DNA of 64,000 nt, from assembly GCA_046154225.1 (NCBI GenBank), contig JBJXEM010000013.1:27388-91387 (forward strand), written 5' to 3'. The translations under genes and the position numbers were made by a program. This DNA comes from Rickettsiales bacterium. GTDB lineage: Bacteria > Pseudomonadota > Alphaproteobacteria > Rickettsiales > UBA3002. The notes below the pieces were generated by a model. The model saw only the letters and a list, made by a program, of their open reading frames with translations. It was not told the origin of the DNA and made no database searches. Below, piece after piece: positions 61,119 through 64,000 of this stretch. Numbering within the stretch: position 1 is the first letter of the stretch; the number at the start of each line of letters is the position of its first letter.

Positions 61119-61433
61119 TTAAGCACCCAATCCACGGGCAGAAGCGTCAAATCCGATGACTTCTTTGAAATCATCCGACAGTTTAATGGCATTAAGAAGA
61201 GCCGAAGGGTTTCCATCGCCCATCTCATTCAACAAAGTCGTCGCCTTATCCGCATGCGGCTTAGCTGCATTTTCTGCAGCATTAAGGGCTTGCTCGGCTT
61301 TAGAGACGGTTTGCTGAGCTTTAGCGTGTGCTTGAAGCGCAGCTTTTAAACCCGCGTTTTCTTCCACCGCATTACGCAACCAGCTTAACGCTTCATCCCT
61401 AGGCATTGTGGTAAAATTAACTTTCTCAACCAT
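61119..61433 (-). CDS. Hypothetical Ala-rich helical protein inserted between rpoB and rpoC
   Basis: ATG 2 nt after the rpoB stop, AAGGAGG RBS inside the rpoB end; visibly AT-richer than the flanks. Confidence 0.75.
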   Translation of the reverse strand: MVEKVNFTTMPRDEALSWLRNAVEENAGLKAALQAHAKAQQTVSKAEQALNAAENAAKPHADKATTLLNEMGDGNPSALLNAIKLSDDFKEVIGFDASARGLGA

Positions 61434-61435
61434 GA

Positions 61436-64000
61436 CTACGCCTCCTTTTCTACTAAATCTACGTCAAGTCCCAATGACCTGAGCTCCTTCGTCATCACGT
61501 GGAACGATTCCGGAATGCCCGACTCGAAGCTGTGATCGCCGCGCACGATGGACTCGTACACTTTCGAGCGACCCGCCACGTCATCGGATTTTACCGTCAG
61601 CATTTCCTGCAAGGTGTAAGCCGCACCGTAAGCCTGAAGTGCCCAGCACTCCATCTCCCCGAAGCGCTGGCCACCGAACTGGCTTTTGCCGCCCAACGGT
61701 TGCTGGGTAACAAGGCTGTACGGCCCAATGCTGCGTGCGTGGATTTTATCGTCCACCAAGTGGTGCAGTTTCAGCATGTAGATGTAGCCGACCGTGGTTT
61801 CACGTTCGAACACGTCGCCCGTGCGGCCATCGACCAGTTGCACCTGGCCTGAGCTTTTATGGCCAGCATATTTCAGCCATTTCTCGATGTCTTTTTCCTT
61901 CGCACCGTCGAACACCGGCGTCGCAAACGGCACGCCTTTGGTGAGGTTTTGCCCCAGTTCCATCAGCGCCGGTTTGTCCATCTTCTTGATTTCAGCCTGA
62001 TGCTCTTTCTCTTCGTACACGTCGAGGAGTTTGTCTTTCAGTACATCGAGTTTCGCGCCGTGCTGCACCGCGTTCACCAGCTCGCCAATCTGGCGGCCAA
62101 TGCCGTTCGATGCCCAACCAAGGTGCGTCTCAAGAATCTGGCCCACGTTCATGCGGCTTGGTACACCCAGCGGGTTCAGCACGATATCAACCGGACGGCC
62201 ATCCTCAAGGTGAGGCATGTCTTCAACCGGAACGATGTTCGAAATCACCCCTTTGTTACCATGGCGGCCGGCCATTTTGTCGCCGGGTTGCAGCTTGCGC
62301 TTCACGGCCACGAATACCTTCACCATTTTCAGCACGCCCGGCATTAAATCATCGCCGGATTGTACTTTTTCAACTTTTTCTTCGAAGCGTTTATTGAGCG
62401 AGTCGACGGCGTCGTCGAGCTGCTTTTTCAGCGCCTCGACTTTTTTCATCGCCTTCTCATCTTTCAGCGCAATCTGCCACCACAGGCCGCGCGGCGTTTC
62501 CGTCAGCTGCTGCTCGGTGAGCGGCTTATCGGTCTTGAAGTTTTTGGGGCCTTTGGTGGCGCTTTTGCCAATCAAAAGTTCCTTCAGCGAACCGTAAATG
62601 TAGCGCTCGGCAATGCCGCGCTCATCGTCACGGTCTTTCGCCAAACGGTCGATTTCGGCGCGTTCAATCGCCACCGCCCGCTCATCCTTCTCGATGCCGC
62701 GACGGCTGAAAATACGCACGCCCACGATAGTCCCCTGGTTGCCCGGAGGCAGACGCAACGAACTATCACGCACGTCGGACGCTTTTTCGCCGAAAATGGC
62801 GCGGAGCAGTTTCTCCTCCGGCGTCATCGGGCTTTCCGATTTCGGGGTGACTTTACCGACGAGAATATCGCCCGGCTTCACTTCGGCACCGATATGCACC
62901 ACGCCGATTTCATCCAGCGAACGCAAGGCTTCTTCGCCCACGTTCGGAATGTCACGGGTGATTTCTTCCGGCCCGAGTTTCGTGTCGCGCGCCATCACTT
63001 CGAATTCCTCGATGTGGATGGAGGTGAAGCGGTCTTCCGCCACCATACGCTCGGAAATCAGGATCGAATCCTCGTAGTTATAACCATTCCACGGCATGAA
63101 CGCGACGAGCACGTTCTGGCCGAGGGCCAGTTCGCCAAGCTCAGTGCTTGGGCCGTCGGCAATGACATCACCCGCTTTCACCTGGTCGCCCACTTTGACA
63201 ATCGGGCGCTGGTTGATGCAGGTGTTCTGGTTTGAGCGCTGGAATTTCTGCAACGTGTAGATGTCCACGCGCGGCGTGCCATCGGCGTTGGTTTCGTCGC
63301 AACGAATCACAATACGGTTGGCGGCCACTTGGTCGACCACGCCATCGCGGCGGGCGGCTTGCGCCGCACCCGAATCGCGGGCAACGATTTCTTCCATACC
63401 AGTGCCAACAAGCGGCGCGTCGGCACGTACCAGCGGCACGGCTTGGCGTTGCATGTTCGAACCCATGAGTGCACGGTTCGCATCGTCGTTCTCGAGGAAC
63501 GGGATGAGTGCGGCGGCGACGGACACGAGCTGTTTCGGCGCTACGTCCATGTACTCGATATGCTCAGGCGCGCTCATCACGAAGTCGCCGTTTTTGCGGC
63601 TTGAAACCAGCTCTTCGGCGAAGGTGCTGCCGTTCACGCCGGCGTTCGCCTGCGCGATGGTGTAGCGGCCTTCTTCGATCGCCGAGAGATACACGACTTC
63701 GTCGGTGATTTTGCCTTTATTCACTTTACGGTACGGCGTTTCGATGAAGCCGTATTTGTTGATGCGCGCATAGGTCGCCATCGAGTTGATGAGACCGATG
63801 TTCGGGCCCTCGGGCGTTTCAATCGGGCAGATGCGGCCATAGTGCGTCGGGTGCACGTCGCGCACTTCGAAGCCCGCACGTTCACGCGTCAAACCGCCCG
63901 GCCCAAGCGCCGACAGGCGGCGTTTGTGGGTAATTTCCGACAGCGGGTTGGTTTGGTCCATGAACTGCGACAGCTGGCTGCTACCGAAGAACTCACGCAC
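61436..64000 (-). CDS. rpoB: RNA polymerase beta subunit (3' part; truncated by the window edge)
   Basis: [42 protein letters not shown]. Confidence 0.99.

What the first reader, a model, noticed from the sequence alone, without database searches (positions are those of the whole stretch)
61119..61490. Orphan gene inside rpoBC with an apparently replaced rpoB 3' end
Seen: an AT-richer 104-aa ORF coupled to the rpoB stop; the last rpoB codons (AGG TCA TTG GGA CTT GAC GTA GAT TTA GTA) break from the GC-ending usage upstream. Inference: a unit of rpoB tail, cargo gene and rpoC head that inserts by using essential gene ends as homology arms, without an integrase; the cargo may be an RNA polymerase-associated factor.
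Basis: partly seen in the sequence, partly recalled or inferred. Interest (0 to 1): 0.7.

Follow-up and report, generated by a model that had tools for sequence, protein, structure and literature searches.

The report
Foreign gene spliced between rpoB and rpoC
A half-kilobase piece of a related bacterium's chromosome, carrying a small gene of unknown function, has been recombined between the two largest RNA polymerase genes, leaving a clear scar: a swapped gene end and a leftover duplicate gene start.

Summary
All genes here lie on the minus strand. The last ~45 nt of rpoB use codons (AGG, GGA) found nowhere else in rpoB or rpoC. This is the worst-scoring of 2749 ten-codon windows.

The 104-aa ORF (GC3 0.41, against 0.73-0.75 for rpoB and rpoC) starts 2 nt after the rpoB stop. 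Its AAGGAGG ribosome site is written in rpoB's last codons.

It is a second, truncated rpoC start with its own leader (60994-61118). It encodes the genus-type beta-prime N-terminus but differs from the real one at 18 of 28 codons, 17 of them silently. It therefore evolved as a working rpoC in another, lower-GC relative.

After it come 12 nt, a copy of a genome-wide 89-nt palindromic repeat, and the native rpoC.

Best reading: one-sided homologous recombination, with the anchor in the rpoB end and an illegitimate join at the other end. This is an HFIR-type scar, not a self-mobilising unit.

The ORF is an orphan. It was absent from 200 other genomes of the order, and only one 88% relative was found anywhere. 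Its function is unknown.

Other genomes of the order hold different cargo genes at this site. This is a known kind of event in an unusual place.

The parts
61481..64000 (-). rpoB, native part (the gene runs off the window end)
   Evidence: Translation. GC3 0.73. 85-86% nt identity to genus relatives in most (80-86% across the nine junctions listed).
61436..61480 (-). rpoB tail of donor type, with the stop codon (61436-61438) and the AAGGAGG ribosome site for ORF104 (61441-61447). The homologous crossover lies upstream of 61480 and probably downstream of 61535.
   Evidence: 5 private synonymous changes to A or T. Lowest codon-usage score of 2749 windows; AGG and GGA are unique to it. AAGGAGG is present only in the 2 ORF-bearing genus genomes, and in 0 of 13 ORF-less ones.
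61119..61433 (-). ORF104 (P0001), an orphan predicted helical protein of 104 aa
   Evidence: GC3 0.41. Only relative is P0004, 88% identical. No Pfam, NCBIfam, PADLOC or significant PHROG match. AF2 model: helix 12-72 plus helix 77-93, pLDDT 70.
61090..61118 (-). Donor-type rpoC leader with GGAG ribosome site
   Evidence: The DNA matches to the rpoC regions of G016 and G003 start 18-19 nt upstream of the ATG. Visual comparison.
60994..61089 (-). Truncated foreign rpoC head: 28 codons of beta-prime, then V-K-K-stop. Homology ends after CCGG at 61005.
   Evidence: 92-nt direct repeat, 78% identical to 60786-60877. 17-25 differences per 87 nt to 12 genus heads. 18 of 28 codons differ from the genome's own head, 1 nonsynonymous, binomial 1.7e-8. 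GC3 0.44.
60993..61004 (-). 12-nt spacer TTAAAAAATAAT at or next to the illegitimate joint
   Evidence: Read. The X1 contig 60964-61604 spans it.
60904..60992 (.). Copy of a genome-wide 89-nt palindromic repeat (31-nt arms, 97% complementary)
   Evidence: I1. 43 full-length copies in the genome. The same family sits in the rpoB-rpoC spacer of G003 and G017. RNA fold z = -7.6.
60877..60903 (-). Native rpoC leader with ribosome site
56683..60876 (-). rpoC, native and complete (1397 aa)
   Evidence: The head is 6-20 nt per 87 from genus heads. It is the only rpoC head found in the genome.

Best explanation
A linear DNA fragment of about 0.5 kb entered this genome from a diverged, lower-GC relative of the same genus or a sister lineage. 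That donor already carried ORF104 tightly packed between rpoB and rpoC.

The left end of the fragment recombined homologously within the last ~50-100 nt of rpoB. The right end, which reached 28-29 codons into the donor's rpoC, was joined illegitimately into the recipient's short rpoB-rpoC spacer. The joint lies just upstream of a resident palindromic repeat. This is homology-facilitated illegitimate recombination (HFIR).

The result is an rpoB with a donor-type tail that still encodes the same amino acids and now carries the Shine-Dalgarno site for the cargo. After it come ORF104, a dead-end stub of the donor's rpoC with its leader, then the untouched native leader and rpoC.

ORF104 is probably co-transcribed with rpoBC and translated by coupling. 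It encodes a small helical orphan protein of unknown role. Most likely it is a passenger tolerated at a permissive, highly transcribed site.

Shown: the anatomy, the foreign composition, the silent-site divergence, the patchy distribution, and the physical linkage in independent contigs. Inferred: the donor, the order of events, the uptake route, and expression.
For: 1. Foreign tract. GC3 is 0.41 for the ORF, 0.44 for the stub and 0.53 for the last 17 rpoB codons, against 0.73-0.75 for rpoB and rpoC. The tail's codon usage ranks lowest of 2749 windows.

2. The stub evolved as a real rpoC elsewhere. It differs from the genome's own head at 18 of 28 codons, with 1 amino-acid change (S14A), and that variant also occurs in G001 and G014. 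P = 1.7e-8 against neutral decay. Its leader is homologous to genus rpoC leaders. It stands 17-25 nt per 87 from all 12 sampled genus heads, while those are 6-20 from the native head.

3. One-sided homology. The tail is joined seamlessly in frame. At the other end homology stops at CCGG (61005), followed by 12 nt and then the repeat.

4. Not inherited. ORF104 was found in 0 of 200 other genomes of the order. Of 23 family junctions, 21 spacers are 30-135 nt with no ORF.

5. Not a property of the repeat. Of 43 full repeat copies, this is the only one with a long (92-nt) direct repeat between its flanks; one other shows only a 15-nt match.

6. Real DNA. Per-run contigs of three runs of one study agree: X1 spans 60964-61604 (2 differences), X1 spans 60730-60973 (0 differences), X2 spans 60772-60990 (0 differences), and X2 and X3 run from about 61250 to 62000 (0 differences). 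Depths are similar, 5.5-8.8.

7. The ORF is probably translated. AAGGAGG lies 7 nt before the ATG. That synonymous codon combination in the rpoB tail occurs in 2 of 2 ORF-bearing genus genomes and in 0 of 13 ORF-less ones. P0004 keeps the same length at 88% identity.

8. No terminator-like site on the minus strand in 60600-61800.

9. ComEC and DprA are present. This is weak support, since 10 of 14 control genomes also have them.
Against: - No donor was found. The best nt identity to the stub among 39 other family genomes is 80%.
- The parental recipient sequence is unknown, so the exact joint, any microhomology and the deleted recipient stretch cannot be shown.
- The link through the 31-nt right arm of the repeat rests on the original assembly. 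The two X1 contigs overlap there by only 10 nt, and all three runs come from one study and may include the source sample.
- The private-substitution cluster in the tail ties with one other place in rpoB. Other genus genomes show clusters of up to 10 per 51 nt elsewhere in rpoB.
- There is no expression data, and no DNA for P0004, so no dN/dS.
Confidence: 0.7

Rival explanations
1. A dedicated integrase-free insertion unit. The cargo gene travels with built-in rpoB-tail and rpoC-head arms and inserts repeatedly into rpoBC operons by double homologous recombination. The cargo is an RNA polymerase partner.
For: - Tail, cargo and head are contiguous and foreign.
- The cargo's ribosome site is written in the tail.
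- The spacer is 300 nt or longer in 9 of 139 same-contig genomes of the order sample, including this one. Six of the other eight hold different same-strand cargo genes, and so does G018 of the genus.
Against: - The rpoC arm was not used here; it is a leftover stub.
- None of the other cargo-bearing spacers examined shows a second head or tail by tblastn.
- G018 shows 0 private bases in its tail and 1 in its head.
- The cargos are unrelated (aspartic protease, IS200 transposase, secreted and membrane proteins), which fits a permissive site rather than one element.
- No copy of ORF104 was found in phage, plasmid or viral collections.
Confidence: 0.1
2. Assembly chimera. Contigs of two co-occurring strains were joined at the palindromic repeat or inside rpoB, so the arrangement does not exist in one molecule.
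For: - The genome is a 64-contig metagenome-type assembly.
- The repeat has 43 full copies.
- The per-run contigs break inside its right arm.
Against: - Contigs from a second assembler link ORF104 to more than 500 nt of high-GC3 native rpoB with 0 differences in two runs. One contig links the stub to the spacer and the repeat arm.
- The repeat arm is only 31 nt with unique sequence on both sides, which is shorter than a typical short read (read length not checked here).
- Depths on both sides are alike.
- The genome has only one rpoC head, and it sits behind this repeat copy.
Confidence: 0.05
3. Local duplication of the genome's own rpoC start, followed by AT-biased decay. ORF104 is either an old gene lost everywhere else or a gene born de novo in the spacer.
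For: - It is a direct repeat 213 nt apart.
- ORF104 is alanine-rich, helical and without relatives, like many young genes.
Against: - 17 of the 18 differing codons in the stub are silent, which decay cannot produce.
- The tail changes are all silent as well.
- The ORF is absent from 200 other genomes of the order.
Confidence: 0.03

Closest known systems
Homology-facilitated illegitimate recombination (HFIR). Seen here: the abstract of PMC3240628 in a search listing. De Vries & Wackernagel 2002, Prudhomme et al. 2002 and Meier & Wackernagel 2003 were seen only as cited in passages and the reference list of PMC5361080.
   Same: Linear foreign DNA is integrated by a homologous anchor at one end and an illegitimate join at the other. 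No integrase is involved. Small inserts.
   Different: Those are laboratory events with known parents. Here it is a natural scar inferred from sequence, the donor and the joint microhomology are unknown, and the site is inside the essential rpoBC operon.
Sequential displacement of T6SS effector-immunity modules in Vibrio cholerae (PMC5361080; passages read)
   Same: A conserved upstream gene end serves as the anchor. The incoming module is inserted and older sequence is shifted downstream, leaving orphan remnants. HFIR is proposed as the mechanism.
   Different: There the displaced material is functional immunity genes in a conflict locus. Here the remnant is a stub of the donor's essential gene, and the cargo has no known role.
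Extra genes between rpoB and rpoC noted earlier in this scan in other phyla (e1-2305175, e1-1181068, e1-1178036, e1-2991594, e1-2422774). These are unchecked AI notes.
   Same: A small, often orphan or fast-evolving gene on the same strand sits between the two large polymerase genes.
   Different: As far as the summaries shown go, none of those notes reports a replaced rpoB end or a duplicated rpoC start. The present ORF shares no detectable sequence with anything but P0004.
Small accessory RNA polymerase subunits delta (RpoE), epsilon (RpoY) and omega (RpoZ). Recalled, and named in note e1-2305175.
   Same: Small proteins that could be made in step with the core subunits.
   Different: No Pfam or NCBIfam match and no fold match. 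Binding is untested.
REP, MITE and Rickettsia-palindromic-element type repeats (recalled; note e1-3229167 concerns another palindromic family in this same genome)
   Same: The 89-nt element has 31-nt inverted arms, 43 full copies, and sits in intergenic spacers including the rpoB-rpoC spacer of relatives.
   Different: No Rfam family reaches threshold. No transposase was sought. It is a neighbour of the scar, not its cause.

Membership tests
HFIR-type recombination scar | Foreign DNA continuous with a stretch homologous to the recipient (the anchor) | tested here: met
   The donor-type synonymous changes start about 42 nt before the rpoB stop and run in frame into ORF104.
HFIR-type recombination scar | The other junction has no homology, or only microhomology | tested here: inconclusive
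   Homology to rpoC stops at 61005 and is followed by unrelated sequence. The parental recipient sequence is unknown, so microhomology cannot be read.
HFIR-type recombination scar | Donor distinct from recipient | tested here: met
   The stub differs from the genome's own head at 18 of 28 codons, 17 silently. GC3 is 0.44 against 0.66 for the native head. The donor itself was not found.
Integrase- or transposase-borne mobile element | A recombinase gene in or beside the insert | tested here: not met
   The ~0.5-kb tract holds only ORF104, which has no family match. The flanks are rpoB and rpoC.
Gene-end-rebuilding nuclease cassette (as in note e1-2831226, same genome) | A nuclease gene in the cargo and a fresh copy of the interrupted gene end | tested here: not met
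   No nuclease domain in ORF104. The functional rpoC head is the native one and the extra copy is the foreign one.
Accessory RNA polymerase subunit | Membership of a known subunit family, or shown binding to the core enzyme | tested here: not met
   No Pfam or NCBIfam hit. Best Foldseek E-value is 3.2. Binding could not be tested because the predictor was unavailable.
REP/MITE-like palindromic repeat (for 60904-60992) | Many dispersed copies with conserved inverted arms | tested here: met
   43 full and 41 partial loci in the genome. Arms are 97% complementary. The repeat is also present in relatives.
REP/MITE-like palindromic repeat (for 60904-60992) | Target-site duplication and a cognate transposase | not tested
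   Not examined.

The most novel reading that the evidence does not exclude
In this alphaproteobacterial order the rpoB-rpoC spacer may be a recurrent integrase-free landing pad. The near-invariant ends of the two genes would let small orphan genes pass between quite diverged relatives by recombination. The cargo's ribosome site is written into silent positions of the rpoB tail. On this reading the cargo proteins, ORF104 among them, are either lineage-specific RNA polymerase partners or genes born de novo in this heavily transcribed gap and then shared.
Probability: 0.15. Interest if true: 0.7.

Novelty: new member of a known kind. Interest (0 to 1): 0.42.

Why it matters
This is an unusually legible natural footprint of how a gene can enter the middle of one of the most conserved and essential operons without any mobile-element machinery. 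One crossover falls in a conserved gene end and there is one illegitimate join. The donor's own rpoC start is left behind as proof of origin.

It also shows that silent codons at the end of rpoB can be reshaped to drive translation of a newcomer. In this order the rpoB-rpoC gap repeatedly holds unrelated extra genes.

If the orphan protein proved to bind the polymerase, it would be a new accessory factor. As it stands, the event type is known, and similar scars have been noted elsewhere in this scan.

Tried and rejected
Searches for relatives of ORF104:
- Pfam, NCBIfam and PADLOC gave no hit. PHROGs gave only E >= 0.019.
- The word-indexed search of 5.8 billion proteins found only P0004.
- HMMER over 1.84 billion representatives found only P0005, a 1387-aa tandem-repeat protein matched in 7 short stretches. 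I take this as a repeat-inflated chance match.
- tblastn found nothing in phages or plasmids, and the IMG/VR scan found nothing.
- Scans of metagenome contigs and genome contigs found no locus, so the DNA around P0004 could not be fetched. The cluster look-up shows only one 1515-nt contig.
- ESM Atlas: best feature score 0.76 to a viral hypothetical cluster, below the lead threshold.
- Foldseek against PDB: best E-value 3.2.

Homology of ORF104 to G018's ORF (P0003): BLASTP E = 0.075; shuffling z = 2.5-3.1; hhalign probability 0.85%. Homology is not shown.

Structure of P0003: the AF2 model has pLDDT 50 and is unusable.

Rfam: only sub-threshold microRNA-like hairpin hits on the palindrome.

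It gave no donor and only broad names (Alphaproteobacteria and Rickettsiales-type MAGs).

A Campbell-type single crossover of a circular fragment was rejected because no second rpoB-tail remnant follows the stub.
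Full report
ANATOMY

Everything of interest lies on the minus strand. Read 5' to 3' on that strand, the order is:
- rpoB, which enters the window at 64000 and stops at TAG 61438-61436.
- 2 nt.
- ORF104, from ATG 61433 to its stop at 61121-61119.
- A 29-nt leader (61118-61090).
- A second rpoC start (61089-60994) that encodes [28 protein letters not shown] and then V-K-K-stop.
- The 12 nt TTAAAAAATAAT.
- An 89-nt palindrome (60992-60904; 31-nt arms, 97% complementary).
- A 27-nt leader.
- The true rpoC (60876-56683, 1397 aa).

The two rpoC starts form a 92-nt direct repeat of 78% identity. It is the most informative feature.

The genome is a 2.18-Mb, 64-contig assembly with 57.4% GC. 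The nearest named records are Alphaproteobacteria and Rickettsiales-type MAGs.

- GC drops to 0.40-0.49 across 60950-61550.
- GC3 is 0.41 in ORF104, 0.44 in the stub and 0.66 in the true head, against 0.73 for rpoB and 0.75 for rpoC. Only 0.5% of 1690 long ORFs of the genome are as low as ORF104.
They contain AGG (0 of 177 other Arg codons) and GGA (0 of 218 other Gly codons).
- A coarser test is only marginal: GC3 in 17-codon windows gives 3.9% of windows as low.
- Against 11 genus relatives, the last 51 nt of rpoB carry 5 bases seen in none of them, all changes to A or T and all silent. The background is 1.23 per 51 nt. This ties for the maximum of 898 windows, with one other place in rpoB.
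- With each relative as the focal genome, the same 51 nt hold 0-1 private bases.
- The encoded tail is unchanged: 97-100% protein identity over the last 120 residues in the ten genus junctions.

THE TRACT IS FOREIGN AND COMES FROM A RELATIVE

The stub's 28 residues are exactly the genus type, identical to G001 and G014. Yet it differs from the genome's own head at 18 of 28 codons, 17 of them silently. The binomial probability under neutral decay is 1.7e-8. So the differences built up while this sequence was a working rpoC start in another genome.

The stub stands 17-25 nt per 87 from all 12 sampled genus heads, whereas those are 6-20 from the native head. The best nt identity among the 39 other family genomes is 80%. 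DNA matches to the rpoC regions of G016 and G003 extend 18-19 nt upstream of the stub's ATG, so its leader is an rpoC leader too.

The donor therefore had rpoB - ORF104 - 29 nt - rpoC. It was a lower-GC3 member of the genus or a sister lineage, and it has not been sampled.

NOT INHERITED

ORF104 was found in 0 of 200 other genomes of the order. Of 23 rpoB-rpoC junctions recovered in the family, 21 have spacers of 30-135 nt. These hold a GC-rich hairpin, a palindromic repeat or nothing. Only this genome (562 nt) and G018 (317 nt) hold an ORF.

Anywhere else, only P0004 turned up: 88% identity, the same 104 aa, on one 1515-nt JGI contig. The exhaustive HMMER search added only a repeat protein that I regard as a chance match.

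MECHANISM

The left junction is seamless and in frame inside rpoB. The right junction ends homology abruptly at 61005 and leaves the native leader and rpoC intact downstream.

A double crossover would have left no stub. A Campbell-type event would have left a second rpoB-tail piece, and none is present. One homologous anchor plus one illegitimate join is what has been described as homology-facilitated illegitimate recombination (abstract of PMC3240628). The same model has been proposed for module displacement in V. cholerae T6SS loci (PMC5361080, passages read).

The palindrome is a bystander:
- It has 43 full copies, and this is the only one with a long (92-nt) repeat between its flanks; one other shows only a 15-nt match.
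- The same family already sits 9-11 nt after the rpoB stop in G017 and G003.
- So the recipient probably had it before the event, and the joint fell in the few bases between the stop and the repeat.

ComEC and DprA are encoded, but they are common, so the uptake route stays open.

IS IT AN ASSEMBLY ARTEFACT?

Per-run contigs made by another assembler, from three runs of one study, agree with the window:
- X2 and X3 link ORF104 to more than 500 nt of native rpoB with no differences.
- X1 has a 641-nt contig running from the repeat's right arm through the spacer, the stub and ORF104 into rpoB.
- X1 and X2 have contigs running from rpoC through the leader into the repeat.
- Depths are alike, 5.5-8.8.

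Only the passage through the 31-nt right arm rests on the original assembly. The runs may include the source sample, so this is not independent biology. I put a chimera at about 5%.

IS ORF104 A GENE, AND WHAT DOES IT DO?

For a real gene:
- A perfect AAGGAGG lies 7 nt before the ATG.
- Among 15 genus junctions, that silent codon combination (AAG GAG G) occurs only in the two genomes that have an ORF right after rpoB, and in 0 of 13 without one. It also occurs in 0 of 9 junctions of other genera of the family.
- P0004 keeps the frame and the length.
- No terminator-like site interrupts the minus strand.

On structure and function:
- AF2 gives a 60-residue helix plus a shorter one at modest confidence (pLDDT 70, pTM 0.38).
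- No fold or family match exists.
- G018's ORF (P0003) is also a singleton orphan. Homology between the two is not shown.

Function is therefore unknown. I commit to a passenger protein expressed with the polymerase subunits, and give an RNA polymerase-binding role about 15%. The complex predictor was unavailable.

WIDER PATTERN

I worked out spacer lengths by hand from two order-wide searches. In 139 genomes both gene ends lie on one contig, and three of these have fused rpoBC frames. The spacer is 300 nt or longer in 9 of them, including this genome.

Fetching eight regions, together with L024 and L019 already held, showed same-strand cargo in:
- G118: a 104-aa orphan.
- G126: a clan AA aspartic protease (TIGR03698, 1e-19).
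- G068: a 128-aa orphan.
- G081: two ORFs (236 and 180 aa) whose N-termini look like signal peptides by eye.
- G071: an IS200 transposase (PF01797, 2.8e-39).
- G027: a 152-aa ORF with a hydrophobic N-terminal stretch (membrane-like by eye).
- G018: the 101-aa orphan P0003.

G131 and G163 hold no convincing gene. The spacer has lower GC than its flanks in six of these seven cargo-bearing genomes. None shows a second head or tail.

The site thus looks permissive for varied newcomers. That argues against one dedicated element and against a polymerase-specific role for every cargo.

Earlier notes of this scan, which I did not check, report genes between rpoB and rpoC in other phyla and several HFIR-type scars with duplicated gene ends. 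One describes a rebuilt argB end in this same genome. The kind of event is therefore not new to the scan.

VERDICT

But the event is best explained by ordinary one-sided recombination from a relative, not by a self-mobilising cassette.

It is a new member of a known kind, of moderate interest. The interest lies in the clarity of the scar, its place inside rpoBC, and the ribosome site written into the rpoB tail.

Noticed in passing
window 60904-60992; also G000 genome-wide: An 89-nt palindromic repeat family with 43 full and 41 partial loci in the 2.18-Mb genome. Copies also lie in the rpoB-rpoC spacer of genus relatives G003 and G017, and a different palindrome lies there in G016 and G224. No Rfam family reaches threshold.
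   Followed up: partly
L019:1195-1500 (G018, same genus): A different singleton orphan ORF of 101 aa (P0003) fills the rpoB-rpoC gap. Its ATG overlaps the rpoB stop (TAATG) and its stop lies 9 nt before rpoC. The rpoB tail there also spells AAGGAGG.
   Followed up: partly
L013, L017, L022, L015, L016 and others (genus spacers): Most genus members have a GC-rich stem-loop right after the rpoB stop, which may be an attenuator or a processing site. It is missing in this genome.
   Followed up: no
G050, G151, G165 (order relatives): Both the rpoB tail and the rpoC head fall in one open frame of 2809-2845 aa, so rpoB and rpoC appear to be fused in these small genomes.
   Followed up: no
L072:411-851 (G071): An IS200/IS605 Y1 transposase gene sits between rpoB and rpoC on the same strand.
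   Followed up: partly
L069:240-617 (G126) and L071:232-1509 (G081): In G126 a clan AA aspartic protease gene lies between rpoB and rpoC. In G081 two adjacent ORFs (236 and 180 aa), whose N-termini look like signal peptides by eye, lie there.
   Followed up: partly
window 60994-61089: The rpoC stub keeps a GGAG site and an ATG, so a 31-residue peptide equal to the first 28 residues of beta-prime plus VKK may be made. Its effect is unknown.
   Followed up: no
P0005: A 1387-aa protein built of about a dozen near-identical repeats of roughly 100 residues was the only distant HMMER hit to ORF104. It is probably a repeat-inflated chance match.
   Followed up: partly
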